From positions 158,718 through 222,717 of the forward strand of contig OZ245797.1 of NCBI GenBank assembly GCA_965228195.1: a stretch of 64,000 bases of DNA, given 5' to 3'. Positions 1,352 through 62,990 of the stretch are shown one piece after another (positions within the stretch are counted from its first letter, which is position 1; each line of letters opens with the position of its first letter). The DNA comes from Candidatus Cloacimonadales bacterium (GTDB lineage: Bacteria > Cloacimonadota > Cloacimonadia > G963667145). Below the pieces are notes generated by a model. It was not told the origin of the DNA and did not search any database. It worked only from the letters and a program-made list of their open reading frames with translations. A program made the position numbers and the translations under genes.

Positions 1352-1514
1352 AAAATAAAAATTAAGAATTAAAAATGAAAAATTTCACCGCAACCCCGCA
1401 CTTTTCAGAGCATCGTCCTACTGATGGTTTCCTGCTTCCGCTAGGAATGAGGGCGGGAGGGGAAATATGTTTTTTTCTCCTTGCGGAGATTTGGTGGTTT
1501 GGCTTTCAGCCAGA

Positions 1515-15976: not shown

Positions 15977-16516
15977 AAATTAAAAGTTAAAAATGAAAAA
16001 TTTCATCCAAACCCTTTCCCTTTAAGTGATTAAATTTTTTCTCCTGCGGAGGCTATTTTTTTTGCGGGGCAGGTAAGCACCCGCTCCTTTCCTTATTTTG
16101 CTAAGTAAATTATTATTGCTTTCTCCTGCGGAGGGCTTACTCTTTTCGGATTGCCGAAAAGAGTAACAGAAAAGACAACTCCGCTTCAAAGCGCCAGCGA
16201 CGGAGCGTGTCACCAGCAGAGTAAAAAAGTGTGGTCGTTCCCGCTTATTACCCGTAGTCTTGTCATTTTCTGCTTTTGGCTTTGCACCTCTACTTAGAAA
16301 GTGATTGGTGTCGCTGGCTTAACAAAGTAACGAAAAGGGGCTAATTTCCCTTTAAGCGGAGGTTGTCCCCACACTCTAAGCAAATAAGCAAGCACCTATC
16401 CACCCAGCTGGGCAGGGCAGGAAGCTCCCTGCCCGCCCCCCTCATTCCTAGCGGAAGCAGGAATCCATCAGTAGGACGATGCTCTGAAAAGTGCGGGGTT
16501 TGAATGGAAAAAAATC

Positions 16517-16801: not shown

Positions 16802-16938
16802 TATGCTTCCTTTGATTTTTTAGCTAAAATGGTATAGCTTTTATTTTGTGTTTACTGTTTTTTGTTCCCTACCCAACCCTTCCTTGGATTCCTGCTTCCG
16901 CTAGGAATGAGGGTGGGAGGGGAAAATGGGTTTCCTAC

Positions 16939-16988: not shown

Positions 16989-17532
16989 GTCAGATTTGGG
17001 GTGGCACTCTCCGCTTCATCGGGGTCACCTGTTTTCACTTGCTCGGTCGAGCAGAGACACTTAGCACTCTCTTCAAGTGTTGAAAACGCAAAGACCAAAG
17101 TGATTAGCCTAATCAGGAACAAATCTCGGAGATGCTCCCCGCCACGGTAATCTTAAGACATCTCACGACCTGTCTCTAGCGAGTTGAAGCGGAGTGCGTT
17201 TTCTTTTCTCTCCCCTCTCTTTTCGTTGAGCGTTCAACGAAAAGAGAGGGACTCACCGTAGGTGAACCAAAGGCTTTGTCGCTTCCGCTCCAAAGCAATT
17301 GATGAGTTACAAAGGATAATTGTTAATTAAAAATAAAAGTGAAAAAATCTACTCCACCAGATGGACAGGGTGGAAACACTTTACCCCTATTCCCTCATTC
17401 CTAGCGAAAGCAGGAATCCATCAGTAAAACGATGCTCTGAAAAGTGCGGGGCGAGGAAGAAAAAAACACCATCACTTAGTGGGGAAAGGATGGGGTGTAA
17501 TTTTTCATTTTTCATTCTCAATTTTTAATTTT

Positions 17533-19967: not shown

Positions 19968-20966
19968 GTGTCAAATAGTTTCTTTGGGTGTTTTTGCCGA
20001 AAGCTTTGTCGCTTCCGCTCCAAAGCTTTGGTTTATTTTACCAAAAGGAAAAATATTACCTTTCTTTTTGGTCGTTCACCTTGCGGTGAGCTACTCTTTC
20101 TTGCAAAGCAGGTAAGCACCCATTCCTTTCCTTATTTTACGAAGTAATCTATTATTGCTTTCTCCTGCGGAGGGCGGACTCTTGTCGCTTTCAGCGGTGA
20201 GTCTTTTTTTCGCCTAGTGGCGAGATGTGTCGCCTTTCTTTTTGGTTATTGGCTTTCAGCCTGACCCTCTCTTTTCGTTGAACGCTCAACGAAAAGAGAG
20301 GGGAGAGAAAAGAAAACCGCTCCGCTTCAACTCGCTAAAGACGGGTCGTGAGATGTCTCTAGAGTTCCGTGGCGTAGAGCATCTCCGAGATTTTTTCCTG
20401 ACTGGCTTATCACTCTGGTCTTTCGTTTTCAACACCTTAAAGAGAGTGCCAAGTGTCTCTGCTCAACCAAGAAAGGAAAAAAAGTGACCCCAGATGAAGC
20501 GGAGTATACCATCTTACCCCTCTAAGCAAGCAAGTGAGACCTAGTCTATCCCCCCCAGCTGGGCGGAATGGGTGCTTGCCTGCTTGCCTAGAGGGAGGGA
20601 ACAATCTCCGCTTAACTGGGTCTTCTTGTTTTCCCTGCATTGATAAGCCAGTGACAAAAATCACTTTCTAAATAGAGGTGCAAAGCCAAAAGCAGAAAAT
20701 AACAAGACTACGGGTAATAAGCGGGAACAACCACACTTTTTTACTCTACTGGTGACACGCCCTGTCGCTGGCGTTCTGAAGCGGAGTTGTCTTTTCTGTT
20801 ACTCTTTTCGGCAATCCGAAAAGAGTAAGCCCTCCGCAGGAGAAAAAATTTAATCACTTAAAGGGAAAAGGTTTGGATGAAATTTTTTCATTTTTCATTT
20901 TTAATTTTTATTATCTGACACCAAAATATAAGCAAAAAATGATTAGCAACTATTTTGGTGTCAGAT
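19968..20966. repeat. repeat block R3: modules S (inverted), T3, Q (inverted), ending in hairpin H6
   Basis: 20230-20520 is the reverse of the S/T unit in R1/R2. 20690-20880 is the reverse complement of Q at 16120-16270. Lies between the GLUG-gene start and the hemW stop. Confidence 0.85.
20914..20963. repeat. hairpin H6 (type C, stem extendable to 17 bp 'tatctgacaccaaaata')
   Basis: 'ctgacaccaaaata' / 'tattttggtgtcag'; loop 'taagcaaaaaatgattagcaac' contains 'tgattagc'. Overlaps the hemW stop codon. Confidence 0.85.
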
Positions 20967-38559: not shown

Positions 38560-39300
38560 AACGCTTAAAACAAGCCAAATTTTACCCTCGCTTATGTCAA
38601 GAAAAAATAGTTTGTGTCTGCTTTCTCCTGCGGAGGGCTCTGACCTGACCACATAAATACGGCTAATCATTTGAGACTTCATTTATGTGGTCAGGTCATA
38701 ATTAAGAGTTAAAAATTAAAAATGAAAAATTCCACCGCAACCCCGCACTTTTTTTTGCATCGTGCTACTTATGGATTCCTGCTTCCGCTAGGAATGAGGG
38801 AATAGGGGTAAAGCGTTTCCGCCCTGTCCATCTGGTGGAGTAGATTTTTCACTTTTATTTTTAATTAACAATTATCCAATGTAACTTATCAATTGCTTTG
38901 GAGCGGAAGCGACAAAGCTTGCGGAGGGCTTACTCTTGTCGCTTTAGCTAGTGGTTCACCTTGCGGTGAGCTACTCTTTCTTGCAGGGCAAGTAAACACC
39001 CATTCCCTTCCTTATTTTGCTAAGTAAATTATTATTGCTTTCTCCTGCGGAGGGCTTACTCTTTTCGGATTGCCGAAAAGAGTAACAGAAAAGACAACTC
39101 CGCTTCAGAGCGCCAGCGACGGGGCGTGTCACCAGCAAAGTAAAAAAGTGTGGTCGTTCCCGCTTATTACCCGTAGTCTTGTTATTTTCTAAACTTAACC
39201 TTTGCACCTCTATTTAGAAAGTGATTTTTGTCGCTGGCTTATCAATGCAAGGAAAATAAGAAAACCCCGTTAAGCGGAGGTTTCCCCGCCTTTAAGTCAT
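38560..39300. repeat. repeat block R4: H7 - inverted P - linker - Q, adjacent to tRNA-Met
   Basis: 38745-38930 is the reverse complement of 17270-17450 (P plus linker). 39040-39250 matches Q at 16120-16330. Detached hairpin H8 lies 340 bp further on at 39649. Confidence 0.85.
38641..38698. repeat. hairpin H7 (type A, extended 18-bp stem with duplicated 'tgacc')
   Basis: 'tgacctgaccacataaat' / 'atttatgtggtcaggtca'; loop identical to H3. Confidence 0.85.
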
Positions 39301-50273: not shown

Positions 50274-50359
50274 TGGTGCGAGAGGGGGGACTTGAACCCC
50301 CAAGAGCAGAGCTCGCTGGATTCTAAGTCCAGTGCGTTTACCAATTTCACCACTCTCGC
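50274..50359 (-). tRNA. tRNA-Leu (anticodon TAG)
   Basis: The reverse complement 'gcgagagtggtgaaattggtaaacgcactggaCTTAGAAtccag...' has a long variable arm (class II), T-arm 'ggggttcaagtcccc' and encoded CCA. Confidence 0.85.
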
Positions 50360-50439: not shown

Positions 50440-51195
50440 AGGCAAAAAAGACAAGATTTCCTGCCCCAAAGGGCTGGAAATCTCTCCGCTTTCAGCGGGG
50501 AATGTTTTTTTCGCCTAGCGGCGAAGAGTTTTTTACTTTTCCCTTTGGGTTCTTGGCTTTCAGCCAAAATGTCACCTTTCTTTTTTTTTGAAAAAAAATA
50601 AATGTGACCGAAAGAAAAAATCAAATCAAAAGACAAAATCCTAACTTGCAAAACTCCTTCGTTGTGGCTGTAGTGTATCGTTTAGATTCTTTCTTAGATA
50701 TACTAAAGTAAGAGAAATAAACTCCTCACACATCCACAACTTCAGTCGTTTAAACAAGTTCACGGATTTAGCCTTGATTGATTACTAGCCCTTCCCGCCT
50801 AGCTGGGTAGGATAGGTGCTTGCTTATTTGCTTAGAGTGTGGGAACAACCTCCGCTTAAAGGGGTCTTCTTATTTTAGTTACATTGATAAGCCAGCGACA
50901 AAAATCGCTTTCTCAGTAAAGATGCAAAACCAGAAGCAGAAAATGACAAGACTACGGGTAATAAACGGGAACAACCACACTTTTTTACTCTGCTGGTGAC
51001 ACGCCCCGTCGCTGGCGCTCTGAAGCGGAGTTGTCTTTTCTGTTACTCTTTTTGGCAATCCGAAAAGAGTAAGCCCTCCGCAGGAGAAAGCAAATATTAC
51101 TGCTTTAATGAGACTAAGACGATGGTGTCTCCGACACCTTATCTTTCTCCCCTAATTCCTAGCGGAAGCAGGAATCCATCAGTAGGACGATGCTG
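50440..51195. repeat. repeat block R5, including direct repeat DR1 (50571-51195), left boundary of the defense island, adjacent to tRNA-Leu
   Basis: 50571-51195 and 61604-62226 differ at about 17 positions over ~625 bp by eye. The block contains Q (reverse orientation) and P, and begins with hairpin-like 'gtcaccttt...aaatgtgac'. Confidence 0.9.
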
Positions 51196-51391
51196 AAAAA
51201 AACCAAACAAAGCAAACAGCTACAAAAAAAAATCTTTCGCTGTTTTTCAGCTTGCGGGTAACGGTTTGAATATGTGGAATACAGGATTTCAAAGCACTTC
51301 ACTATCAAACCGTTGAGAAGTTGAAGCGGGCTATAACCGTTGAATTCACTACTATTTCGCCTATTTTGTATATAAAATGTTGTAACATTTT

Positions 51392-52936
51392 TTATTCTTC
51401 ATCCTTTTTAAAGACTGCCAAATGTTCTAATAATTCTATGTTTCTTTTCGGTTTCTTTATAGTCTCAAATAATTTAATCCCTGTTGGTATCGGTTTAAAG
51501 AATTCAGCCCGATTATCTTTTAAACTTTTAATCAACTTGCTCCTAACTTTTGATGGAAAGCTAACTTTAAATAAGTCCAAAGACTTTACAAAGTACACCA
51601 ACCAAATAATATCATATTGATTGTCCTCTGGATTTTTCAACTTGTCATTTAAAAGATTTTCAATCACTGAACTAATTGTTGAAATCGTCCTGACCTTTTT
51701 CCTATTGTTCAATATTATTTGCTCTATTATTCCTAATATTTGAGGAAATGATTTATTTCTTCTTTCCTTAAGCATAAGCAATAAGCTTATTGTTTTCAAT
51801 AAATCTTTTTCCTTAAAGTCAAATTTAAGGTCAAAATCCTTGGTGTAAAGTTCACTTAAAAACCTATCAACAACACCAGTACCTTCGTATTTTTGGTCTA
51901 CCTTTAGAGTTCCTCTTATTGAACTTTCAAATCTTTTATAACTTACCTTTCTCTTATACCTTAATGAATATTGTTGGTAATCAGCCGTCCATTCCCTAAA
52001 TAATCCTTCTGGCAATTCATCAATTTTCGATTTACCTTCATTTAGCGTCAGGTTGTATAAAGCTAACTGTTTCTGCAATACCTTAATTATTTGATTAGCT
52101 TCTTCTTTTGTCTGACACAAAAAACGATAATCGTCTTTAAATCTTACTCCTAAAAAATCAATCCCTTGAGTATCGATTATTTTAGAGCACTCAGTATCCA
52201 AAGCAACAAGAATTAACTCAGAAATTAAGTCTGAAAGAGCTGGCCCAATAGCGATTCCGTTTGTACACCCATCATTAGAATATTGGAATAGTTTATCCAG
52301 AACTAATCCGACAAAATTATTAAAATCACTCCGATTACCCTTTTTTCTTATCTTCTCCTTAGTGTGAATTGCCCAAGCAATACTATGTGTATAGATTGAA
52401 GAATAGAAATTTTTAATATCTGTTTTAAGTATGTATTTATAGTTATAAGCTTCTGCTACTAAATCATTTTCTGCCATTTCAAGAAACTCATAAATCATTC
52501 TACCAGCTCTCAAATTTCCAAGAAGTCCTTCACTTTTATTTGAAACGGGTATTGGAAAACTATAAGAGTAGATTTTATTCTGTCGCCTAAACAATGATTT
52601 CTGAATTAATTCCCAATCATTTATCAAGTACCATACAATGTCGTGATATATTTTAGGAGCAATAATTCCAAATGTTCTATCAGTCAGTTGTGTTTTTGGA
52701 AATGAAACATTTAATAATTCGGATTTTTCAGGCTCAAATTTAGGCTGGCTACCTGAATTATCTATTTCAAAATATGGATTTGTCAATAGGTCAAATTTAC
52801 CAACTTCAAAACACGGAGGCATAACATATTGCTCAGGAAAATAACCTTCTTCCAATAACCATTTTGCAACAATGTCTTTTGGTACTTTTTTTAGAAGTTT
52901 TTTAGTTTCAATGCTATGTTTTCTTGGTAATGTCAT
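51392..52936 (-). CDS. stand-alone reverse transcriptase of the UG/Abi (defense-associated, DRT/Abi-P2-like) type, 514 aa
   Basis: RT motif 1 'FPIPVSNKSEGLLGNLRAGR', motif 2 'DIKNFYSSIYTHSI', motif B-like 'NGIAIGPALSDLISELIL', motif C 'FLGVRFKDDYRF' (catalytic DD), then a ~170-aa helical C-terminal domain. No maturase or endonuclease domain; A+T-rich codon usage. Confidence 0.8.
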   Translation of the reverse strand: MTLPRKHSIETKKLLKKVPKDIVAKWLLEEGYFPEQYVMPPCFEVGKFDLLTNPYFEIDNSGSQPKFEPEKSELLNVSFPKTQLTDRTFGIIAPKIYHDIVWYLINDWELIQKSLFRRQNKIYSYSFPIPVSNKSEGLLGNLRAGRMIYEFLEMAENDLVAEAYNYKYILKTDIKNFYSSIYTHSIAWAIHTKEKIRKKGNRSDFNNFVGLVLDKLFQYSNDGCTNGIAIGPALSDLISELILVALDTECSKIIDTQGIDFLGVRFKDDYRFLCQTKEEANQIIKVLQKQLALYNLTLNEGKSKIDELPEGLFREWTADYQQYSLRYKRKVSYKRFESSIRGTLKVDQKYEGTGVVDRFLSELYTKDFDLKFDFKEKDLLKTISLLLMLKERRNKSFPQILGIIEQIILNNRKKVRTISTISSVIENLLNDKLKNPEDNQYDIIWLVYFVKSLDLFKVSFPSKVRSKLIKSLKDNRAEFFKPIPTGIKLFETIKKPKRNIELLEHLAVFKKDEE

Positions 52937-53084
52937 TCTCTGTCTTTAAATAACTGGCAACCACTCGCTACCATCATTTTACATATCATCCTTATTTGAC
53001 TTGCTATCTACATAGTTTATATTTTTTCCCATAACTCTTACTCACTCCTACTTGTCGAAAAAATAAGCCCAAACTTCTTTGTCA

Positions 53085-53500
53085 ACCAAAATAGTCAAGG
53101 CTTTGTCGCTTCCAGCGGTGAATGTTTTTTTCTCCTGCGGAGGGCTTACTCTTTTCGGATTGCCGAAAAGAGTAACAGAAAAGACAACTCCGCTTCAAAG
53201 CGCCAGCGACGGGGCGTGTCACCAGCAGAGTAAAAAAGTGTGGTTGTTCCCGCTTATTACCCATAGTCTTATTATTTTCTGTATCTGGCTTTGCATCTCT
53301 ACTTAGAAAGTGATTTTTGTCACTGGCTTATCAATGCAGAGAAAATAAGAAGATCCCGTTAAGCGGAGATTGTCCCCACACTCTAAGCAAATAAGCAAGC
53401 ACCTATCCCGCCCAGATAAGCAGCGCAAGAAGCCCATTTTCCCCTCCCACCCTCATTCCTAGCGGAAGCAGGAATCCATCAGTAGGACGATGCTGAAAAA
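53085..53500. repeat. repeat block R6 inside the island (Q forward ... P forward) between the RT promoter region and the DUF1016 gene
   Basis: 53130-53230 matches Q ('ttctcctgcggagggcttactcttttcggattgccgaaaagagtaacagaaaagacaactccgcttcaaagcgccagcgacggggcgtgtcacc'). 53450-53500 matches P ('cctcattcctagcggaagcaggaatccatcagtaggacgatgctg'). Confidence 0.85.
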
Positions 53501-53602
53501 AACCATTTGACAATCAATGTCTTAACCAAACCCTTTGAAAGATCAATCCAAATTGTTCAAAACAAAAAGCCAATATTTTGAGTTGGTCGAAAGGAGATAG
53601 CT

Positions 53603-54604
53603 GTGAGTAACAAAAAAAATATAGATGATCAACTAATTAGTTCAAATTTTTATTCTGACATAAAAAATATCCTCCAAAATGCTCGCTCTAAAGCCCGCTC
53701 TGCTGTAAATTCGACAATGGTTGAAGCTTATTGGTTTATAGGTAAACGAATAGTAATAGAAGAGCAAAATGGACAAAGCAAAGCAAAATACGGTCTGCAT
53801 TTATTGGAAAATTTATCAACAAAACTAGCCGATGATTTTGGCAGAGGATTTTCTTATGCTAATCTCAGAAATTTCCGTCAGTTTTATCTAACCTATCCAC
53901 AGAAAGAGATTTGCTACACAATGTGTAGCAAATTGACTTGGAGCCACAACAGATTAATAATGCGTGTTGAAGATCCAAAAGCTCGGGATTACTACTTACA
54001 AGAGGCTTCACAAGAAAACTGGAGCGTTCGCCAACTAGAGCGTAATATCAAATCTAACTATTTTGAACGCTTGCTTTCTACGCAAAAAAACGATGCTGTT
54101 TCTAATACTGAGAAAACACTCGACTTTATTAAAGATCCTTATGTTTTAGAGTTTTTGCAACTGCCAGAGAGTAACATAAAAGAATCAGCTTTAGAAGAAG
54201 CTATTGTCAGTGAATTAAAAAGTTTCTTGCTTGAAATGGGAAAGGGATTCTCTTTTGTAGCTAAACAAATGCGTATAAGCACCGAAACTTCTCATTTTTA
54301 TATCGATCTTGTATTTTATAATTATTTGCTAAAATGCTTTGTGATTATAGATCTTAAAACAGGCAAACTCACCCACCAAGACATTGGGCAAATGGATATG
54401 TATGTGCGTATGTTTGACGATTTAAAACGCAATAAAGACGATAATCCTACCATCGGAATTATCTTATGTGATAGCAAAGATAAAACCGTCGTGAAATATT
54501 CTGTGTTAAAAGAGAACGAACAACTTTTTGCTTCAAAATATCAGAAAGTGCTACCAACCGAAGAAGAGCTAATTGCTGAAATTGCAAGAGAAAAACGCAG
54601 ATAG
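53603..54604 (+). CDS. DUF1016/YhcG-like protein with C-terminal PD-(D/E)xK nuclease fold
   Basis: 333-aa ORF. 'FYIDLVFYNYLLKCFVIIDLKTGK' gives the D...(D/E)xK nuclease core seen in YhcG-family proteins; A+T-rich; between the RT and the hsd operon. Confidence 0.75.
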   Translation: MSNKKNIDDQLISSNFYSDIKNILQNARSKARSAVNSTMVEAYWFIGKRIVIEEQNGQSKAKYGLHLLENLSTKLADDFGRGFSYANLRNFRQFYLTYPQKEICYTMCSKLTWSHNRLIMRVEDPKARDYYLQEASQENWSVRQLERNIKSNYFERLLSTQKNDAVSNTEKTLDFIKDPYVLEFLQLPESNIKESALEEAIVSELKSFLLEMGKGFSFVAKQMRISTETSHFYIDLVFYNYLLKCFVIIDLKTGKLTHQDIGQMDMYVRMFDDLKRNKDDNPTIGIILCDSKDKTVVKYSVLKENEQLFASKYQKVLPTEEELIAEIAREKRR

Positions 54605-54715
54605 TAGTGTTTTTTTTCCACCAAGCACATAAATTTGCTCCTAAGAGATATTAAAATTTATTCTATTCAAATTATTTATAAAATTGTAAACAATTTGTGT
54701 GCTGGTAAGAGTCTT

Positions 54716-57700
54716 CTATAATCTGATTTGATTACCAGTTTGACTCTGAATCAATGTTTCAAAAATAAACTCTTTATATCTTCTTTGAAAATCTTTGTCG
54801 TTGTTAAACTTTTTGAACACTTCAGTTTGACTAAACAAATATTGTTGCACCACTTCCTCAAGTTTTTTATCTGCACTAATTTTTGCGTTTTGGCGATCTG
54901 AGTATTTTATCGTATTCATTATTTCTTTATTAGCTTTCATTTCTGCAGGTAATTGCTCTATTAATATTTTTCTTACTTTGTCTTTATCAGACCACTCAAT
55001 ATCACCAAATCGCTGATTAAATACACTTAAAATATTTTCCAGTGTATCTAACTCTGGTTCTTGTTGTCCACCTCTTACATCAACAGGAATTCCACAAATT
55101 TCGCCTGGCTTCTCAACTAATGCAATATCTTTGGTTGTCTCTTTTGAGGGACGATAACTGTCCATATCAATACTTTCCAAAATTCCTTCCGTAAAATCAT
55201 CAGTCTGATCTATATATAACTTAGTAACAAGGTATTTAAGAAACCAGAAAAGCTTTTCCCAAGTTTGATTGTTAAAATCTAGTATTTTAGTAAGATAGCT
55301 GTAAACTCTCAAAAATGATTTTGCTTTTGCCTTGAAATCTATTTGTTGATCTTTGCTAATATCATTTTTAAATATTTTAACAGACCTATCTATTATAGGG
55401 TCAAGTTTTGCACGCTCTTCACCTTCAATATATTTTTTGAAAAAGTCATCAATTTGGTAATCAGAATAAACCTCGAAAGCTTCCATAGAGTCTACTAAAT
55501 CGTTCAGTTTATTTGGATTAGTTTCTTCACTTAATATGGTTGCCGTGTAATAAGGGTCAAAAGCCAACTTAATTTCTTCTGCTTCGTTGAAAAAGTCTAA
55601 GACAAAGGTATCTTTTTTATGTGGTTTTTTAGCACGGTTTAATCGTGAAAGTGTTTGAACGGCTTGAACTCCTGCCAACTTTTTATCTACATACATAGTG
55701 TGCAATAATGGCTCATCAAAACCTGTCTGGTATTTTTCGGCAACTATCAAAAAGCGATATTCCATTTTTTTAAAATTCTTGGGAATATCTGTTTTAAATG
55801 TTTTGAAGTTATTCATGCCAACCTCATTATATTCAACACCCTTGTATAGTTTTGTTCCAGAGAAAGCAACAATAGCTTTGTAGGGCGATTTTATTTCTTT
55901 CAAATAAGTGTCGAAAGCTTGCTTATACTTAATTGCTAATTCAATACTTTTGGTAACAACCATCGCTTTTGCTTTTCCACTTATTAGTTGACGAACATCA
56001 CGATGAAAATGGTCAATCATTATTTTAGACTTTTCGGCAATGGCAAATTCATTACCCTCTACATAAGCTCGAAGTTTTTTCTGTGCCTGTTTGGTGTCAA
56101 ATTCAGGATTATCTTCAACCGCTTTAATTAGCTTATAAAAAGAGTTGTAAGTTGTGTAATTTTTCAATACATCCAGAATAAACCCTTCCTCAATTGCCTG
56201 TTTCATGCTGTAGACATGGAAAGCATAAAATCTATGTTTTATCTCCCCATTTTCATCGGTGTAAGTTTCTTCCGATTTTACACCAAAAGTTTCCAGTGTT
56301 TTATTTTTTGGCGTAGCCGTAAAGGCAAAGTAAGAGCCGTTTTTGATCATTTTACGACTTTCAATCAGGTCGTTTATTTTATCCTCCAAGGTTTTCTCTT
56401 CCTTTTCTTCTTCGCCATGTTTATCTGCTAAAACAGCATTCATTTTCGAAGAAGTCTGTCCACTTTGTCCACTGTGTGCTTCATCAATGATAATTCCGAA
56501 TTGCATAGCTGGCATATCTGCCATTTCATCTAATAAAAACGGGAAAGTCTGAACGGTGCAAACAATTACTTTTTTACGGTTGGCGAGTGCTTCTTTTAGC
56601 TGACTTGTTTTACTTCCACCAACACTGGTAATGTGCTCAACAATGCCACGTTTTGGCGAGAACTGTTTAATATCTTCGCTTAGCTGTTTATCAAGCACAA
56701 TACGGTCTGTAATTACGATAACCGAATCAAATAAATGCGTTTCTCCTGAAGTGTCAAACAAACCATGCAGTTGATGAGCCAACCAAGCTATCGATTTTGA
56801 TTTGCCCGAACCTGCCGAATGTTGAATCAAGTATTTATTGCCAACACCATTACTTTTTGCATCTGCTAAAATTTGCCTGACTGCGGTAAGCTGATGATAA
56901 CGAGGAAAAATCATCATGCGTTTTACTCTTTTAGTTTCCTCGTCGGTTTCTTCAACAACCTGTGCAAATTTGTCGATAATGTTGGCAAGCGACTGTTTGG
57001 TTAAAACCTCTTCCCAAAAGTAATGTGTTTTTAGTCCCGTTGGGTTTACTGGATTTCCAGCCCCAAAATTGCCTGTTGCTCTACCTTCGTTTAAGCCTTT
57101 GTTAAAAGGCAAAAAGAAAGTTTTTTTATGATTCAAATGCGAGCTCATAAAGATCAATTCTGTATCGACTGCAAAATGAACCATGCAACGAGCAAAAGAA
57201 AATATCTTTTCTTTTGGGTCTCGGTCGTTTTGGTATTGGCGAATGCCGTTGTGAACGGTTTGTCCGCTTAACGGATTTTTAAGCTCACATGTAATAATTG
57301 GCAAGCCGTTTAAAAAGATAGTCAAATCTAAGCGGTTGGCATTGTCAGAACTATAAACTAACTCCTGAGTCACTGAAAAAATATTGGCGTTGAATTTATC
57401 AAGGTCTTTGGTATTGTAGCTTGAAGCAGGTTGACGGAAAAACAAATTCACGGTTTTATCGAAGTGCTTTATACCTTTTCGTAACACTTCAATTACGCCT
57501 AGTTTCCTGAGTTTTTCATCCAAACGCACCAAAAAAGAACGCTCGCCCTTGCGCTTAATCATTTGGTAAGTCTCAGGCTGGGTCTTTTTGATAAACCCCC
57601 ACAATTGTTTTGGGTTTATGCAAAACTCTTTGTCGAAATCTTTAGAAACAGTCTCGCAAAACTTGTTTTGCTCCACAAGTTGTTTCACAATGTATTTCTG

Positions 57701-57736
57701 AAACCCCTTTTCTGATGTATCTGTAAATGTCCTCAT
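54716..57736 (-). CDS. hsdR: Type I restriction enzyme R subunit HsdR
   Basis: 1006-aa ORF. N-terminal nuclease domain, SF2 helicase motifs 'QHSAGSGKSKSIAW' (Walker A) and 'IIIDEAHSGQ' (DEAH), and a C-terminal helical domain. Last gene of the operon. Confidence 0.9.
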   Translation of the reverse strand: MRTFTDTSEKGFQKYIVKQLVEQNKFCETVSKDFDKEFCINPKQLWGFIKKTQPETYQMIKRKGERSFLVRLDEKLRKLGVIEVLRKGIKHFDKTVNLFFRQPASSYNTKDLDKFNANIFSVTQELVYSSDNANRLDLTIFLNGLPIITCELKNPLSGQTVHNGIRQYQNDRDPKEKIFSFARCMVHFAVDTELIFMSSHLNHKKTFFLPFNKGLNEGRATGNFGAGNPVNPTGLKTHYFWEEVLTKQSLANIIDKFAQVVEETDEETKRVKRMMIFPRYHQLTAVRQILADAKSNGVGNKYLIQHSAGSGKSKSIAWLAHQLHGLFDTSGETHLFDSVIVITDRIVLDKQLSEDIKQFSPKRGIVEHITSVGGSKTSQLKEALANRKKVIVCTVQTFPFLLDEMADMPAMQFGIIIDEAHSGQSGQTSSKMNAVLADKHGEEEKEEKTLEDKINDLIESRKMIKNGSYFAFTATPKNKTLETFGVKSEETYTDENGEIKHRFYAFHVYSMKQAIEEGFILDVLKNYTTYNSFYKLIKAVEDNPEFDTKQAQKKLRAYVEGNEFAIAEKSKIMIDHFHRDVRQLISGKAKAMVVTKSIELAIKYKQAFDTYLKEIKSPYKAIVAFSGTKLYKGVEYNEVGMNNFKTFKTDIPKNFKKMEYRFLIVAEKYQTGFDEPLLHTMYVDKKLAGVQAVQTLSRLNRAKKPHKKDTFVLDFFNEAEEIKLAFDPYYTATILSEETNPNKLNDLVDSMEAFEVYSDYQIDDFFKKYIEGEERAKLDPIIDRSVKIFKNDISKDQQIDFKAKAKSFLRVYSYLTKILDFNNQTWEKLFWFLKYLVTKLYIDQTDDFTEGILESIDMDSYRPSKETTKDIALVEKPGEICGIPVDVRGGQQEPELDTLENILSVFNQRFGDIEWSDKDKVRKILIEQLPAEMKANKEIMNTIKYSDRQNAKISADKKLEEVVQQYLFSQTEVFKKFNNDKDFQRRYKEFIFETLIQSQTGNQIRL

Positions 57737-57739
57737 AAA

Positions 57740-59128
57740 CTATTCCTTTATTTTTGAACGATATTGGTTTTCTTTTTCGGCGACCATTCCCAAATCAATA
57801 TCTTGACCCAAATTTGAGTTTGCATCATCAGGCACTTTTAACTGCCCTGTTACTATTTGGGTGATTAAACTTTCTTGGTACTCTTTGGCTTTAGCGATTT
57901 CTGTTTGGGCTTTTGTAACAGCTATTTCATACGGAGATAGTTCGCTCTCAATCTTTCGAACAATATTAATTTGTTCCTCTTTAGGAGGTAGTGGAATAAA
58001 CATTTTACTAAAATCTCCCTTGCCAATATTTGGTTGACCTGTCTCTCTTTGACCAAATATAATTTGGTCAAAAATAACAGACGAAGATAATAGCCAAAAA
58101 AGATAGTCTTTATTTAGTTTTTTATTAGAAGGGAAAAAGTTGCCTACACGATAGTTTTGTAATAAAACTTCGTTAATACCCTTTGCACATATAATCTTAC
58201 CAATTGTACCACCTGTCAATGCCATTAAAATATCACCTTCGTTTATGATATCTTCTCTAAATTCAACCTTCCTTTTAGAATCAACAAAAGAGCAATTTGA
58301 TAAATCTAAACTTCCTTCATAGGTTAGTTGGGTGATTTTAACAATTTTAATTCCAATATTCTTAAAGTCATAATCTCTAAATTGGTGACCATGCCTTAAA
58401 TAAATATAATGGTTAAATTTCACAACTTCCCAATGTTCAGGTATATCACCAATCCATTCGTTGTTAGAACTAATAAGTTTTCCTGAACCCTCACCATTGG
58501 TTATAAGTTTATATATGATTGATTTCTTTTCTTCCTCCAACAGCTCAATCAATCGTTCTTTTTTAGCAACAAAATCTTGTATTTGCTTTGTTTTGCGGTC
58601 GAGGTAGGCAACTATGGCATTTTGGGTTTCAAGCGGTGGCACAATACTGTACATACGTTTGAAATCCACGTAACGTAATGGTATTTGTCCATCTGCAATT
58701 CCATAAGCAAAACGTTCCACATAGTTTTTATAAAAACCAGTACGAAACATGTAATAGAAGAAACGAGGATTTAACTCAACTCCTTTCTTTGGTTTCAAAA
58801 CTGTACAAGCTGGACTTACAATTCCTTTGTAAACGCTGTAACCCGATGCACCTTGGCGAAAACGCATGCTGTAAACCAAATCGCCAGGATAAACCAATAA
58901 GTACTTACTTTTATCTAAAGTGGATGAATCCCTTTTCTCCAATTCAGATTGTTTAATTACTCCACGCCCAATGGTTACTGAAAGTAGTTCTTTATCTTCG
59001 TGTCCACGTTCAATCCGTTCCTGAAAAATTGCAATATTTGGTAACAGTTTCCAGCCTTCGGGTAATTGCGAAATGTAATCGTATTCAACAGGCTGATAGT
59101 TTGTGTATGCTTGTAATTTACCCATCAC
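57740..59128 (-). CDS. hsdS: Type I restriction-modification specificity subunit HsdS
   Basis: 462-aa ORF with two target-recognition domains separated by conserved coiled-coil spacers ('LIELLEEEKKSIIYKLITNG', '...LITQIVTGQLKV'). It overlaps hsdM by 4 nt. Confidence 0.85.
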   Translation of the reverse strand: MMGKLQAYTNYQPVEYDYISQLPEGWKLLPNIAIFQERIERGHEDKELLSVTIGRGVIKQSELEKRDSSTLDKSKYLLVYPGDLVYSMRFRQGASGYSVYKGIVSPACTVLKPKKGVELNPRFFYYMFRTGFYKNYVERFAYGIADGQIPLRYVDFKRMYSIVPPLETQNAIVAYLDRKTKQIQDFVAKKERLIELLEEEKKSIIYKLITNGEGSGKLISSNNEWIGDIPEHWEVVKFNHYIYLRHGHQFRDYDFKNIGIKIVKITQLTYEGSLDLSNCSFVDSKRKVEFREDIINEGDILMALTGGTIGKIICAKGINEVLLQNYRVGNFFPSNKKLNKDYLFWLLSSSVIFDQIIFGQRETGQPNIGKGDFSKMFIPLPPKEEQINIVRKIESELSPYEIAVTKAQTEIAKAKEYQESLITQIVTGQLKVPDDANSNLGQDIDLGMVAEKENQYRSKIKE

Positions 59129-61314
59129 TCTTTCACTATTTGGTTTAAAATACCGTCGGTTTCTTGCTCTAGTTGCAAAATTTCTGCGCTAATCTCTTCA
59201 ATGCTGCGTGGCGGAACATAGTTGTAGAAATAACGGGTAAAAGATATCTGGTAACCTTTTACGGTTTTCTTGTGGTCAATCCAAGCGTCATTTACATGAG
59301 CCAAAACCTCACGCTCAAAATAGGTTTGAATATCTTCGTCTAAAGGCACATTTTCGGTGTCGCGCAAATCGCCATCGGCTTCGTAAATTATAGTGCCGTC
59401 TTTTTCTGTTTTCTTGATTACAGGCTCGGCATCTTCGTTTTTCCAAGTAATGGCGTTTATAATTGCTTTTTGTGCCTTATTGTCGAGTTTCAGCTTTTCA
59501 CTCTTTATGGTTTCGGTAAATAGTTTAGAAAACTTGTTAAAATCGTTATGCTGTTCGGTTCCAATGCTGCTCATTAGTTTTGTCGCATTTTTAAGCAGTT
59601 CTTTTTGTGCTTTCCAAAAATCCTCACTAAACAAATTTTTCTTTTGTGCCGCTTTTAGTTTTATCTCGTGTCGGGCAAGATGGTTTTCAATCTCAGGTTT
59701 TAAATCTTTCAGTTTGGTATAAACATCATCGCCAAACTTCTGGTAAACCCAAACCATTTCAGCGGCAATACTTTTTTCAAAACGCAAACCCTTAAGGGCT
59801 TCCTGGGTAAATTGTGCCGATAAACGCAAAGGGCGTTCAACCGTAATTTTATTGTAGCCAAAATAGTCGTTCGGGAATATTTTGGAAATGTCCGATTCTT
59901 CAAAGTCCATATAAAGCTTTGTAATTTGGTCGATGTGTTTGGCTGTCATCTCACAGTTCTTATCTCCCAAGTTTTTGCGAAGCTTTACATACAATTCAAG
60001 TGCGTTAATCAATTGCACCTTCCCTTTTCGTTTGTCTGGTTTTCGGTTGTTCACAATCCAAACATAGGTTGGTATTCCTGTATTATAAAAGATATTTTTA
60101 GGTAAAGCAATGATGCAGTCTAACCAATCGTTTTCGATAATATATTTGCGGATTTCGCTTTCTCCGCCACCAGCGTCGCCTGTAAACAAAGCCGAACCAT
60201 TATGAACAGTTGCAATTCGGCTTCCCAGTTCGGTATTGTGTTTCATTTTGCTGAGCATATTCATCAGGAACAATAATTGCCCGTCAGAAATAGTTGGCAA
60301 ACCAACTTGAAAACGAGGATCTTTAATATTCTGGGCATTTTCGCCCGAACCTTTTTTGCCTCGGTTGGCAACAATGGCGTTTTCATCAAGCTTCCAAGTT
60401 TTGCCATAAGGTGGATTTGAGAGCATAAAATCAAAATTAAGGCTTGGAAAACCATCTTTTGAAAGGGTAGAGCCAAAAGCGATATTTTCAGGTTTATCGC
60501 CTTTTATCAGCATATCAGAGGTGCAAATTGCAAAAGTTTCAGGATTTACCTCTTGTCCATACAACAAAAATGATGCTTCGTTTTCTGTAAGTTCCAAAGC
60601 AAACTGTTCTGCCTCGGTTAACATTCCGCCACTACCACAGGCTGGATCATAGATTAAATAACTTCCTTTTTTGATTTTATTTTTAACAGGCAAGAACAAA
60701 ATGTGAGTCATCAGTTTAATGATTTCTCGTGGCGTAAAGTGTTCTCCAGCTTCCTCGTTATTTTCTTCGTTAAACTTTCTGATTAGTTCCTCGAAAACAT
60801 AACCCATTCCTAAATTGGTCAACGGTGGCATTTTATCACCTTTTCCATTTACCGCTTCATTAGGACTCAAGTTAATCTCTCTGGAGGCAAACTTTTCAAT
60901 TAGCAAATAGGTGATCTCGTTTTCTTTCATAGTCTCAAGCTGGTTTCGCAGTTTGAATTTGCTAATTATTTCTTGCACATTGGGGCTGTAACCATCCAAA
61001 TAAACCTCAAGGTTGCTGTCTATATTATCAGAATCGTTTAACAGGCTCTCAAAAGTAAACTTGGAAGTGTTCCAAAATGGATAACCAGTTTGTGATTTTA
61101 AAGCAGACAAATCGTCTATTTGATTTTGCTTCATAAACTCTACTGCTTCAAGCACCTTTGCCTTTGTCGGAACAAGAAGAGCGTCTAACCGTCTCAAAAC
61201 AGTAAAAGGCAAAGTTATATCTCGATATTTGCCTCTAACAAAAACATCTCTGAGCACATCGTCGGCAATACTCCAGATGAAACTTACTATTTGATTGTGA
61301 ACTTTATTGTTCAT
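59125..61314 (-). CDS. hsdM: Type I restriction-modification N6-adenine DNA methyltransferase HsdM (long form, 729 aa)
   Basis: HsdM N-terminal domain, SAM-binding 'DPACGSGGML', catalytic 'LSNPPYG', and a ~250-aa helical C-terminal extension. Confidence 0.9.
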   Translation of the reverse strand: MNNKVHNQIVSFIWSIADDVLRDVFVRGKYRDITLPFTVLRRLDALLVPTKAKVLEAVEFMKQNQIDDLSALKSQTGYPFWNTSKFTFESLLNDSDNIDSNLEVYLDGYSPNVQEIISKFKLRNQLETMKENEITYLLIEKFASREINLSPNEAVNGKGDKMPPLTNLGMGYVFEELIRKFNEENNEEAGEHFTPREIIKLMTHILFLPVKNKIKKGSYLIYDPACGSGGMLTEAEQFALELTENEASFLLYGQEVNPETFAICTSDMLIKGDKPENIAFGSTLSKDGFPSLNFDFMLSNPPYGKTWKLDENAIVANRGKKGSGENAQNIKDPRFQVGLPTISDGQLLFLMNMLSKMKHNTELGSRIATVHNGSALFTGDAGGGESEIRKYIIENDWLDCIIALPKNIFYNTGIPTYVWIVNNRKPDKRKGKVQLINALELYVKLRKNLGDKNCEMTAKHIDQITKLYMDFEESDISKIFPNDYFGYNKITVERPLRLSAQFTQEALKGLRFEKSIAAEMVWVYQKFGDDVYTKLKDLKPEIENHLARHEIKLKAAQKKNLFSEDFWKAQKELLKNATKLMSSIGTEQHNDFNKFSKLFTETIKSEKLKLDNKAQKAIINAITWKNEDAEPVIKKTEKDGTIIYEADGDLRDTENVPLDEDIQTYFEREVLAHVNDAWIDHKKTVKGYQISFTRYFYNYVPPRSIEEISAEILQLEQETDGILNQIVKE

Positions 61315-62285
61315 TTATTTACCTCGTCAATTTAAAAAAGTCATAACAATAAACAAATTACAGCTTTGCAAAAAAAAATCTTGCTGCAAATTTGAGTTTT
61401 AGCAAAAATGTGACTTTTTGGCAAGCTAAAAACATCAACTTGTGTGTCGGAGCTTGCAAATTTGCTGTTTGTGTGGAGTGCAATCACAACTATTTACTAA
61501 CATCATTGTCTATAATTTTCATTATAGTATCCAAGAAAACTTATCCAAATTTTCCCGTCAACCAAAATAGTCAAGGCTTTGTCGCTTCCGGCGGGTTACT
61601 TATGTCACCTTTCTTTTTTTTTGAAAAAAATAAATGTGACCGAAAGAAAAAATCAAATCAAAAGACAAAATCCTAACTTGCAAAACTCGTTCGTTGTGGC
61701 TGTAGTGCATCATTTAGATTCTTTCGGAGCATAGCTAAAGACAGAGAAATAAACTCCTCACACATCCACAACTTCAGTCGTTTAAGCAAGTTCGACGGAT
61801 TTAGTCTTGATTGATTACTAGCCCGTCCCGCCTAGCTGGGTAGGATAGGTGCTTGCTTATTTGCTTAGAGTGTGGGAACAACCTCCGCTTAAAGGGGTCT
61901 TCTTATTTTAGTTACATTGATAAGCCAGCGACAAAAATCGCTTTCTCAGTAAAGATGCAAAACCAAAAGCAGAAAATGACAAGACTACGGGTAATAAACG
62001 GGAACAACCACACTTTTTTACTCTGCTGGTGACACGCCCCGTCGCTGGCGCTCTGAAGCGGAGTTGTCTTTTCTGTTACTCTTTTTGGCAATCCGAAAAG
62101 AGTAAGCCCTCCGCAGGAGAAAGCAAATATTACTGCTTTAATGAGACTAAGACGATGGTGTCTCCGACACCTTATCTTTCTCCCCTAATTCCTAGCGAAA
62201 GCAGGAATCCATCAGTAAGACGATGCCCAAAAAAGTGCGGGGTTGCGGTGGATTTTTTCATTTTTCACTCTTAATTTTTTCTTTT

Positions 62286-62335: not shown

Positions 62336-62990
62336 ATTTGGGGTGGCACTCTCCGCTTCATCGGGGTCACTTTTTTTCCTATCTTAGTAGAGCAGAGACA
62401 CTTGGCACTCTCTTAAGGTGTTGAAAACGAAAGACCAAAGTGATTAGCCAGTCAGGAACAAATCTCGGAGATGCTCCCCGCCACGGTAATCTTTAAGACA
62501 TCTCACGCCCTGTCTCTAGCGAATTGAAGCGAAAGCGACAAAGCTGTGGGGACAATCTCCGCTTAAAGGGAAATTAGCCCCTTTTCGTTACTTTGTTAAG
62601 CCAGTGACAAAAACCACTTTCTAAGTAGAAGTGTAAAAGTTACGTTTAGAGAATGACAAGTCTACGGATAATAAGCGGGAACAACCACACTTTTTTACTC
62701 TGCTGGTGACACGCCCCGTCTCTAGCGAATTGAAGCGGAGCGCGTTTTCTTTTCTCTCCCCTCTCTTTTCGTTGAGCGATCAAAGAAAAGAGAGGGTCTT
62801 GCTGAAAGCAATAAGAGTAAGCCCTCCGCAGGAGAAAGCAATAATAATTTACTTAGCAAAATAAGGAAAGGAGCGGGTGCTTACCTGCCTGCAGAAAAAA
62901 ATGCAAGGTTAGAAAGAGAAAAACATAATCACTCAGTGGGAAAAAAATTGAATGAAATTTTTTCATTTTTCATTCCCAATCTTTTATTTT

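What the first reader, a model, noticed from the sequence alone, without database searches (positions are those of the whole stretch)
51196..53085. Stand-alone UG/Abi-class reverse transcriptase with a structured ~190-nt 3' flank (candidate cognate ncRNA)
The 514-aa ORF has RT motifs 1, 2, B and C (FKDD replaces YxDD) and a ~170-aa helical C-terminal domain. It has no maturase, endonuclease or retron-like features. This is the layout of defense RTs of the DRT/Abi-P2 group.

Several DRT systems need a structured ncRNA encoded next to the RT. Here the RT stop (51392) is followed, on the RT strand, by:
- a tight hairpin at the stop ('aaaatgttacaacatttt');
- a 10-bp stem enclosing a 35-nt loop ('aacggtttga...tcaaaccgtt', 51269-51323) with a third 'aaccgtt' repeat;
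- a terminator-like stem-loop plus T-rich tract only at ~51213-51247.

A ~150-nt structured tail before the terminator is unusual for a 3' UTR.

The 5' side (52937-53085) holds a TTGACA box and a 17-codon uORF-like frame, which I rate low.
Basis: partly seen in the sequence, partly recalled or inferred. Interest (0 to 1): 0.75.

Follow-up and report, generated by a model that had tools for sequence, protein, structure and literature searches.

The report
Defence reverse transcriptase, relic integron cassette
The gene is a stand-alone anti-phage-type reverse transcriptase (group UG14), and the "structured tail" behind it is a worn-out integron recombination site (attC) rather than a partner RNA, so the locus is an ordinary though instructive example of a defence gene that arrived as a mobile gene cassette.

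Summary
The 514-aa ORF (51392-52936, minus strand) is a full-length UG14 reverse transcriptase of class 1 UG/Abi (PADLOC E 8e-214). Its nearest solved relatives by sequence and fold are DRT4, DRT6, AbiK and Abi-P2, which make untemplated, protein-primed DNA and need no ncRNA.

The flank as a whole, however, folds no better than shuffled sequence (z about -1.6). It is also not conserved with the RT. Homology to relatives of 84-93% identity stops 25 nt before the ATG and 4-23 nt after the stop.

What is conserved is an integron cassette signature:
- a GTT box upstream and a matching AAC box at the stop, which co-vary;
- a ~135-nt imperfect palindrome that also follows unrelated ORFs in same-strand arrays;
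- integron integrases next to the RT in two genomes.

A profile and a covariance model built without the window both hit 51253-51388 full length (E about 4e-7). This is the only such hit in 64 kb. The window copy is degraded: its boxes no longer match, only 10-13 of 20 stem pairs form, and no integrase is present.

Verdict: a UG14 defence RT on a relic single cassette, inside a small restriction-modification island.

The parts
51392..52936 (-). UG14 reverse transcriptase gene, 514 aa: RT domain plus a C-terminal helical-repeat domain. Class 1 UG/Abi.
   Evidence: PADLOC RT_UG14 E 8.2e-214 over residues 2-511. Pfam RVT_1. PDB sequence hits: DRT6 9wy8 at 3.9e-27, Abi-P2 7r08 at 8.6e-23, UG15/DRT4 at 3.8e-19. 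Foldseek top hits DRT4, UG15, DRT6, AbiK and Abi-P2 over about 400-520 (mostly 460-500) columns.
52952..52961 (-). GTTGCCAGTT: R'-type (GTT) box, the 5' boundary of the former cassette, 25 nt before the ATG.
   Evidence: Homology to relatives of 84-98% identity begins at 52950-52961. The corresponding box in relatives (GTTACCAGCT, GTTACCTGCC and others) is the reverse complement of the box at their stop codon. The window box matches its partner at only 6 of 10 positions.
51253..51388 (-). Degraded attC-type recombination site (imperfect palindrome).
   Evidence: nhmmer profiles built without the window: E 2.3e-8 at 51256-51384 and 4.3e-7 at 51254-51384, spanning nearly the whole profile (positions 5-135 and 5-137). 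Covariance model R1: 37.8 bits, E 3.8e-7, model positions 1-138 of 138. It is the only full-length hit in 64 kb. Only 10-13 of the 20 consensus pairs form.
51379..51388 (-). ATGTTACAAC: R''-type (AAC) box of the attC-like site, altered relative to L087 (AGCTGGTAAC).
   Evidence: Alignment columns 1-10 of A2. Comparison with L087 and L088.
51253..51262 (-). GTTACCCGCA: R'-type box that closes the attC-like site. The presumed crossover G|TT lies at 51262|51261, which is the 3' boundary of the former cassette.
   Evidence: The GTT aligns with the nearly invariant GTT of the family.
51374..51391 (-). Local 7-8-bp hairpin abutting the stop codon. Specific to this genome.
   Evidence: Present. Absent from L087, L088 and L084-86, which carry the intact AAC box here.
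51260..51314 (-). 10-bp stem with a 35-nt loop. Specific to this genome. Formed between an internal attC motif and the spacer next to the GTT box.
   Evidence: The 5' arm is not present in L087, where homology ends at 51318.
51202..51252 (-). Short T-rich tail between the attC-like site and the dispersed repeat. Not a consensus terminator.
   Evidence: No terminator-like site on the minus strand here. A 16-nt imperfect inverted repeat lies at 51192-51207 / 51236-51251.
50569..51201 (+). Left copy of a 635-nt direct repeat. The right copy is at 61602-62234. Together they bracket the low-GC island that holds the RT, YhcG and the type I R-M genes.
   Evidence: 96.9% identity over 635 nt. GC is 30-40% inside the island against 41-54% in the housekeeping stretch upstream of it.
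53081..53118 (-). An identical copy lies upstream of hsdM (61557-61594).
   Evidence: There are only two copies in the window.
53603..61314 (.). Rest of the island: YhcG/DUF1016 PD-(D/E)XK nuclease (53603-54604, +), HsdR (54716-57736, -), HsdS (57740-59128, -), HsdM (59125-61314, -).
   Evidence: Pfam YhcG_C and DUF1016_N. The Hsd assignments are my reading of the ORF translations and are not confirmed by a domain scan.

Best explanation
**The protein.** The ORF encodes a UG14 reverse transcriptase, a single-protein system of the class 1 UG/Abi group. It has an RT domain fused to a helical-repeat domain.

By homology with DRT4, DRT6, AbiK and Abi-P2, it most likely acts alone. The inferred mechanism is that it polymerises DNA without a template, starting from one of its own side chains. 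The candidate priming residue is the invariant Tyr149 in the motif RAGRMIYEF. The resulting single-stranded DNA would become toxic when a phage protein stabilises it, giving abortive infection. These steps are inferred, not shown.

**The 3' flank.** It is not an RNA partner. Positions 51253-51388 are a degraded attC site, the folded-DNA recombination site of an integron gene cassette.

In many relatives the RT is a bona fide cassette. The unit runs from the TT of a GTT box 18-60 nt upstream of the ATG, through the ORF, to an AAC box at the stop codon. A ~135-nt imperfect palindrome follows and ends in the next GTT. An integron integrase can excise and insert this unit.

**History in this genome (inferred).** The cassette was either inserted on its own or survived from a decayed array. 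It sits at the edge of a ~10-kb low-GC island with YhcG and a type I restriction-modification system, close to tRNA-Leu.

Its boxes and stem have since decayed and no integrase is nearby. It is therefore probably fixed in place, and it must be expressed from whatever promoter lies upstream.
For: **Protein**
- PADLOC RT_UG14 E 8e-214, full length.
- PDB sequence hits to DRT6, Abi-P2 and DRT4.
- AF2 model (pLDDT 74), with Foldseek E 1e-15 to 1e-11 to DRT4/UG15, DRT6, AbiK and Abi-P2 over about 400-520 (mostly 460-500) columns. DRT2, DRT9, retron and group II RTs reach only about 1e-5, and most of them align over fewer columns.
- The DRT4 priming Tyr125 aligns with Tyr149, which is invariant in 37 UG14 sequences.
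- Literature: DRT4 and DRT6 make protein-primed untemplated ssDNA and are single-gene systems (PMC12783706). UG14 was predicted to be a defence gene from its island association (PMC9226505).

**Cassette signature in relatives**
- Homology to relatives ends at 52950-52961 and at 51388-51369.
- The upstream GTT box and the stop-codon AAC box co-vary. 25 of 114 non-identical loci match at 9 or more of 10 positions, against 0.8% of mismatched pairings. In the clade of 60% identity or more the figure is 19 of 47.
- In arrays, the GTT box of one site is the reverse complement of the AAC box of the next: L070, L019, L064, L104, L098.
- The palindrome has a 17-bp stem in which all 17 pairs show double changes. 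82% of cells pair, against 30-41% when the partner is slid.
- The sites are all on the RT strand. They directly follow unrelated ORFs.
- TIGR02249 integron integrases (485 and 441 bits, cutoff 265) lie 2.0 and 1.4 kb upstream of the RT in L053 and L058, divergently oriented.

**Window site**
- Profile and covariance-model hits built without the window: E 2e-8 to 4e-7, spanning the whole model or nearly so, and the only full-length hit in the window.

**Precedents**
- Single attC sites lacking an integrase, formed by cassette insertion outside integrons (bioRxiv 10.1101/2022.09.11.507474).
- A defence cassette homologue with a pseudo-attC inside a defence island (bioRxiv 10.1101/2024.07.02.601719).
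Against: - No UG14 enzyme has been tested. The mechanism is carried over from homologues of 20-24% identity.
- DRT6 has Ser, not Tyr, at the position aligned with Tyr149. That loop (residues 129-150) is modelled with low confidence.
- The window's attC-like site forms only about half of the consensus pairs, and its boxes match at chance level (6 of 10). 'attC' here therefore rests on sequence homology to the family, not on an intact structure.
- IntegronFinder's attC model could not be run.
- The Bacteroidota-type sites have an asymmetric spacer (1 nt against 5-6 nt) where canonical sites have a more symmetric unpaired spacer.
- No integrase was found within the flanks available for the Bacteroidota loci or in the 64-kb window.
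- Nothing here shows that the RT is transcribed, or from where.
Confidence: 0.75

Rival explanations
1. One reading: the ~190-nt 3' flank is transcribed as a structured ncRNA that the RT uses as template or scaffold, as in DRT2, DRT9 or DRT3.
For: Hairpins are present. A conserved structured element does lie downstream of many UG14 RTs. Mestre et al. raise the possibility of ncRNAs in further UG groups (PMC9226505).
Against: - The fold is no better than shuffles.
- The hairpins are absent from the closest relatives.
- The conserved element also follows unrelated ORFs. It resembles its array neighbours rather than the elements of RT orthologues, for example the up and down sites of L115, L055 and L104.
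- Several loci have 10 nt or less, or an overlap, between the RT stop and the next ORF.
- The RT groups with the template-independent class 1 enzymes, not with DRT2 or DRT9.
- No Rfam family matched.
Confidence: 0.04
2. The flank is just a 3' UTR or spacer, and its similarity to attC-like sites is coincidental or reflects a shared terminator-type palindrome.
For: The stem is poorly formed in the window. No integrase is present in the window. The z-scores are weak.
Against: The match is full-length and collinear with E about 4e-7, from models that exclude the window, and it includes the internal motif AGTGAAGTGCTTTGAAATC and the AAACCGTTA end. The 98%-identical relative L087 has the same element with an intact AAC box matching its upstream GTT box 10 of 10.
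Confidence: 0.08
3. The cassette is still mobile: the attC site works despite its mismatches and could be excised by an integrase encoded elsewhere in the 1.56-Mb genome.
For: attC sites tolerate great sequence variation. The covariance-model score of 37.8 bits lies inside the range of independent sites, 22-84 bits. Bottom-strand pairing is slightly better, at 13 of 20.
Against: There is no attC or attI upstream to pair with. The R'/R'' boxes do not match. Stem pairing is among the lowest in the family. The DNA fold does not give the long hairpin.
Confidence: 0.1

Closest known systems
UG14 group of class 1 UG/Abi reverse transcriptases (Mestre et al. 2022, PMC9226505)
   Same: Full-length match to the UG14 profile. 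RT domain plus a helical C-terminal domain. Stand-alone. Located in a defence island.
   Different: Nothing of note. UG14 itself has no experimental characterisation and no DRT number in the sources I could search.
DRT4 (UG15) and DRT6 (UG12), AbiK, Abi-P2: protein-primed, template-independent DNA polymerases
   Same: Same fold over nearly the whole length. Single-gene architecture. No ncRNA. The candidate priming Tyr149 aligns with DRT4 Tyr125.
   Different: Only 20-24% identity, and a separate UG group. Oligomeric state, product and trigger are unknown. The priming residue differs among known members: AbiK Tyr44, Abi-P2 Tyr61, DRT4 Tyr125 (PMC12783706).
Integron gene cassettes carrying phage-defence genes (BRiCs; bioRxiv 10.1101/2024.07.02.601719 and 10.1101/2024.07.02.601686)
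   Same: In relatives, the defence gene is a promoterless unit bounded by a GTT box and an attC. It sits in same-strand arrays, and integron integrases are adjacent in two genomes.
   Different: I found no report of an RT (DRT/UG) cassette in those papers. Most arrays seen here are in Bacteroidota and use their own attC sequence family, with no integrase in the flanks available.
SALIN: single attC site lacking an integron integrase. Also pseudo-attC beside defence genes outside integrons (bioRxiv 10.1101/2022.09.11.507474; 10.1101/2024.07.02.601719)
   Same: One attC-like site after one gene. No integrase and no second site in 64 kb. Located in a small defence island. The attC carries disabling changes.
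   Different: Whether it arose by attC x genome-site insertion or by decay of an array cannot be told from this window.
DRT2, DRT9 and DRT3 systems (RT plus a structured ncRNA)
   Same: An RT of the UG/Abi superfamily with adjacent non-coding sequence.
   Different: Those RTs, or one partner in DRT3, are class 2 and copy an ncRNA. Here the RT is class 1, and the adjacent element is shared with unrelated cassettes.

Membership tests
UG14 (class 1 UG/Abi RT) | Full-length match to the group's profile, better than to any other UG/Abi/DRT group | tested here: met
   RT_UG14 scores 708.9 bits and E 8e-214 over residues 2-511 against profile positions 2-492 of 493. The next best is Drt6 at 241 bits.
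UG14 (class 1 UG/Abi RT) | RT domain with a catalytic xxDD motif, fused to a C-terminal helical-repeat domain | tested here: met
   RVT_1 at residues 141-305. FKDD with invariant D268 and D269. Helices at 333-473 in the model, and fold matches spanning the C-terminal domains of DRT4, AbiK and Abi-P2.
UG14 (class 1 UG/Abi RT) | Anti-phage activity | not testable with these tools
   Predicted only from defence-island association (PMC9226505). Here the gene sits beside a type I R-M system and YhcG.
Protein-primed template-independent polymerases (AbiK/Abi-P2/DRT4/DRT6) | DNA synthesis without template, covalently attached to a Tyr of the enzyme | not testable with these tools
   Inference only. 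The invariant Tyr149 aligns with DRT4 Tyr125. The aligned residue in DRT6 is Ser.
RT plus cognate ncRNA systems (DRT2/DRT9/DRT3-like) | A structured non-coding element next to the RT that is conserved together with the RT | tested here: not met
   Flank homology stops at the cassette boundaries. Intergenic distances vary widely. There is no flank conservation among 60 loci apart from neighbouring genes. The one conserved element is shared with unrelated ORFs.
Group II intron / retron / DGR RT | Profile match above cutoff, and accessory features (maturase/En domain, msr-msd, TR/VR) | tested here: not met
   Group II RT model 49 bits against a cutoff of 300. Retron model 44 bits against 235. No Rfam group II or retron RNA in 49.5-54.5 kb.
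Integron attC site | Imperfect palindrome of about 57-141 nt with conserved AAC ... GTT triplets | tested here: met
   Family: 135-141 nt, AAC and GTT nearly invariant, 17-bp co-varying stem. Window: AAC at 51379-51381 and GTT at 51260-51262, 136 nt. The stem in the window is degraded, at 10-13 of 20 pairs.
Integron attC site | Crossover signature: the box after GTT upstream of a cassette is the reverse complement of the box before AAC at its 3' end | tested here: not met
   Met in relatives at 9-10 of 10 positions in 25 of 114 loci, and between consecutive array sites. In the window only 6 of 10, which is chance level.
Integron attC site | Occurs in same-orientation arrays, one site after each ORF | tested here: not met
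   Met in relatives: L020 has 9 sites, and L019, L070, L064 and L008 have 3 each. All sites are on the ORF strand and lie within a few to about 60 nt (mostly within 20 nt) of a stop codon. In the window there is a single site, so the locus is SALIN-like rather than an array.
Integron attC site | Integron integrase (IntI) nearby | tested here: not met
   Met in L053 and L058 (TIGR02249 at 485 and 441 bits). No IntI-like sequence in the window, or in the 1.5-5-kb flanks of the Bacteroidota loci.
Integron attC site | Unpaired central spacer and extrahelical bases in canonical positions; recognised by IntegronFinder's attC model | tested here: inconclusive
   The family has 1 nt against 5-6 nt between the AAC/GTT triplets and the stem, plus three internal mismatch columns. 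The IntegronFinder model is not available here.
Integron attC site | Recombined by IntI as folded single-stranded DNA | not testable with these tools
   Needs an in vivo recombination assay.

The most novel reading that the evidence does not exclude
UG14 reverse transcriptases may be one of the commonest cargoes of a largely undescribed set of integron-type cassette arrays in Bacteroidota and related FCB-group bacteria. These arrays use their own ~135-nt attC family.

IntegronFinder 2.0 reported only one complete integron in Bacteroidetes (PMC9024848). Such arrays would therefore mean one of two things. Either integrons are far more widespread in this phylum than recorded, or the cassettes are moved by a recombinase that has not been recognised.

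The window would then be a stranded cassette from that system, in a Cloacimonadota-like small genome.
Probability: 0.35. Interest if true: 0.55.

Novelty: new member of a known kind. Interest (0 to 1): 0.3.

Why it matters
For this window, the result removes a false lead. There is no RT-ncRNA system here. There is a single-protein UG14 RT, with a DNA recombination relic behind it.

More generally, it shows that conserved structure next to a defence gene can belong to the vehicle (the integron cassette) rather than to the defence mechanism. Any search for DRT-associated ncRNAs needs this control.

The cassette boundaries also define the minimal transferable UG14 unit: about 25 nt of leader plus the ORF. 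That is useful for cloning and testing this uncharacterised group.

The attC family found in Bacteroidota arrays could serve as a probe for cassette arrays in a phylum where integrons are barely documented.

Tried and rejected
- **Rfam scan of 49.5-54.5 kb at E up to 1:** only tRNA-Leu and a chance sX4 match on the same tRNA.
- **Folding of both flanks as RNA and as DNA:** z between -1.6 and -1.9, so not significant.
- **Direct blastn of the window's flanks against 80 genome loci:** nothing.
- **An RNA pairing between the 5' and 3' ends of the mRNA that would enclose the ORF.** I first considered this to explain the co-varying inverted repeat. I dropped it once the same box logic was seen between consecutive sites around unrelated ORFs, and integron integrases were found.
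- **Terminal inverted repeats of a transposon-like element.** Rejected because the box cores differ between lineages while the GTT/AAC ends stay fixed.
- **The 308-nt inverted repeat flanking the RT (50797-51104 / 53114-53421) as an invertible segment or RT-associated RNA.** Rejected because it is a dispersed repeat with at least 7 copies in the window.
- **Automated attC delimitation by constrained folding:** too noisy to use.
- **The 17-codon uORF and the TTGACA box:** no conservation, and no matching -10 element.
- **Exact look-up of the window protein:** returned only the same genome, as a fold-back contig.
- **Naming the organism:** it could not be named. The nearest named ClpX relatives are Cloacimonadota at about 61% identity.
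Full report
**1. What is there**

The ORF at 51392-52936 on the minus strand encodes 514 aa.
- Pfam sees only RVT_1, at residues 141-305.
- Against PADLOC, the best model is RT_UG14: E 8.2e-214, residues 2-511 on profile positions 2-492 of 493. Drt6, Drt4 and AbiP2 follow far behind.
- NCBIfam models for group II intron and retron RTs score far below their cutoffs.
- More than a thousand homologues exist, at 57-98% identity among the best 120. They are mostly from Bacteroidota and metagenomes.
- The catalytic motif reads FKDD, with both Asp residues invariant.

**2. What the protein most likely does**

By sequence, the nearest solved structures are DRT6 (9wy8), Abi-P2 (7r08) and UG15/DRT4.

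An AlphaFold model built from 37 sequences (pLDDT 74) matches DRT4/UG15, DRT6, AbiK and Abi-P2. The Foldseek E-values are 1e-15 to 1e-11, over about 400-520 (mostly 460-500) columns. RTs that depend on an ncRNA (DRT2, DRT9, retrons, group II) reach only about 1e-5, and most of them align over fewer columns.

DRT4 and DRT6 are single-gene systems. They make random single-stranded DNA without a template, primed from a tyrosine, and are triggered when a phage DNA-binding protein protects that DNA (PMC12783706). Class 1 enzymes are summarised as untemplated in the abstract of PMC13174585.

In the HMMER alignment, DRT4 Tyr125 falls on Tyr149 of this protein. Tyr149 lies in the invariant RAGRMIYEF motif and in a loop that is modelled with low confidence. 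This is inference. UG14 has only been predicted as a defence gene (PMC9226505).

**3. The flank as a structure**

The hairpin at the stop codon and the 10-bp stem are real.

The flank does not fold better than shuffled sequence, as RNA or as DNA. The scan finds no terminator on the RT strand.

**4. The flank in relatives**

I collected 80 genome loci, 80 metagenome loci and the contigs of the closest proteins.
- Relatives of 84-86% protein identity align to the window from 52950-52959 to 51388 only.
- The 93% relative aligns from 52961 to 51369.
- The 98% relative aligns from 52961 to 51318.
- The distance from the RT stop to the next ORF ranges from an overlap to about 1 kb.
- Flanks of different loci share nothing except neighbouring genes in one distant subclade.

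An RT-specific ncRNA is therefore not supported.

**5. What is conserved instead**

The short conserved ends contain an inverted repeat that brackets the ORF and co-varies. Examples are GTTACCAGCT ... AGCTGGTAAC and GTTACCTGCC ... GGCAGGTAAC. The downstream arm abuts the stop codon.

The upstream arm always starts with GTT and the downstream arm always ends with AAC. These are the core and inverse-core boxes of integron attC sites. An anchored test gives 9 or more matches of 10 in 25 of 114 non-identical loci, against 0.8% for mismatched partners.

Downstream of the AAC box lies a ~135-nt imperfect palindrome that ends in the next GTT. In an alignment of 17 such sites:
- a 17-bp stem has double changes at all 17 pairs;
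- 82% of cells are paired, against 30-41% when the partner is slid;
- the covariation score is 0.545, against 0.107 or less for the slid controls.

The same element follows unrelated ORFs in same-strand arrays. L020 has nine sites, and L019, L070, L064 and L008 have three each. The GTT box of one site is the reverse complement of the AAC box of the next. This is what recombination at G|TT predicts.

Most of the cassette ORFs scanned have no Pfam match. One has Abi_C, and one array is interrupted by an IS transposase.

In Chitinibacter tainanensis (L053) and a Methylophaga MAG (L058), a TIGR02249 integron integrase lies 2.0 and 1.4 kb upstream of the RT, divergently oriented.

**6. The window copy**

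An nhmmer profile was built from five sites of other genomes. It hits 51256-51384 on the RT strand at E 2.3e-8. A 16-site profile gives 4.3e-7 at 51254-51384. Both hits span nearly the whole profile. A covariance model gives 37.8 bits and E 3.8e-7 over model positions 1-138 of 138, at 51253-51388.

This is the only full-length hit in 64 kb. Independent sites score 22-84 bits, and all 35 lie on the RT strand.

The window site is worn:
- only 10-13 of the 20 consensus pairs form;
- the AAC box (ATGTTACAAC) matches the upstream GTT box (GTTGCCAGTT) at 6 of 10 positions, whereas the 98% relative L087 has 10 of 10;
- no integrase-like sequence is present in the window.

This corresponds to a single attC site lacking an integrase, or a pseudo-attC. 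Both have been described, including beside a defence gene in a defence island (bioRxiv 10.1101/2022.09.11.507474 and 10.1101/2024.07.02.601719).

**7. Setting**

The RT sits at the edge of a low-GC stretch with a YhcG nuclease and the HsdR/S/M genes. A 635-nt direct repeat brackets this stretch, and tRNA-Leu lies 0.8 kb away.

The 308-nt inverted repeat around the RT is a dispersed repeat of this genome.

The host is an unnamed bacterium with a contig of about 1.56 Mb. Its ClpX is closest, at about 61% identity, to Cloacimonadota.

**8. Verdict**

The ncRNA interpretation does not hold.

The locus is a new member of known kinds: an uncharacterised class 1 defence RT, carried on a relic integron cassette.

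One point may be new. UG14 RTs are frequent integron-type cassettes, many of them in Bacteroidota arrays with their own attC family. I found no report of this in the searchable literature. It is incremental to the known fact that integron cassettes carry defence genes.

Noticed in passing
window 16116-16483, 20549-20848, 39035-39296, 50797-51104, 53114-53421, 61830-62122, 62545-62740: A ~300-nt dispersed repeat (82-92% identity between copies, both orientations) occurs at least 7 times in 64 kb. Two inverted copies flank the RT. In 49.5-54.5 kb, which covers two of the copies, no Rfam family matched. Its nature (MITE, REP-like element or RNA gene) is unknown.
   Followed up: partly
window 1402-1469, 16438-16483, 16885-16934, 17392-17436, 38749-38800, 51150-51205, 53450-53505, 62183-62234: A ~56-nt unit (CCCTAATTCCTAGCGGAAGCAGGAATCCATCAGTAGGACGATGCTGAAAAAAACCA) with an internal hairpin is dispersed in both orientations. 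It is often, but not always, next to the 300-nt repeat.
   Followed up: no
window 50569-51201 and 61602-62234: A 635-nt direct repeat (96.9% identity) brackets the ~10.4-kb low-GC island that holds the RT, YhcG and the type I R-M genes. tRNA-Leu (50274-50359) lies just outside. This suggests that the island was gained, or can be lost, by recombination between repeats.
   Followed up: partly
window 53081-53118 and 61557-61594: A near-identical 38-nt piece (one mismatch; 29 nt are identical), containing two TTGAC boxes, lies upstream of the RT and upstream of hsdM, and nowhere else in the window. It may be a shared promoter or operator for the two defence units.
   Followed up: partly
L091 (ENA ERZ25074352 ctg15830), whole locus: An 11-kb long-read contig from the same organism (99.6-99.9% identity) is a perfect fold-back: RT-YhcG-partial hsdR, then its mirror image. 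It is most likely an assembly or read artefact, not an inverted duplication.
   Followed up: partly
L047, L048, L052, L054, L056 (RT at about 41% identity): In a distant subclade from Proteobacteria and Verrucomicrobia, the sequences flanking the RT on both sides are conserved across the five loci. Pfam scans place a 938-aa N6_N4 DNA methylase upstream in L047 and ~700-aa UvrD-like helicases downstream in L052 and L056. This suggests a three-gene system, not a cassette.
   Followed up: partly
L020 529-9345; L019 6536-8230; L070 1087-4947; L064 3191-8577; L008 6551-10755: Bacteroidota-type cassette arrays use a shared ~135-nt attC family. L020 has nine sites. Cassette ORFs are mostly without Pfam matches. 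One is an Abi_C protein, and an IS transposase interrupts the L070 array. No integrase lies in the 5-kb flanks.
   Followed up: partly
L085 and L086, upstream of the RT: In the 'Delongbacteria'-type relatives, two ORFs (387 and 295 aa, no Pfam match) precede the RT by 48 nt. An attC-like site lies further upstream (L085 270-406). This may be a multi-gene cassette or neighbouring cassettes.
   Followed up: no
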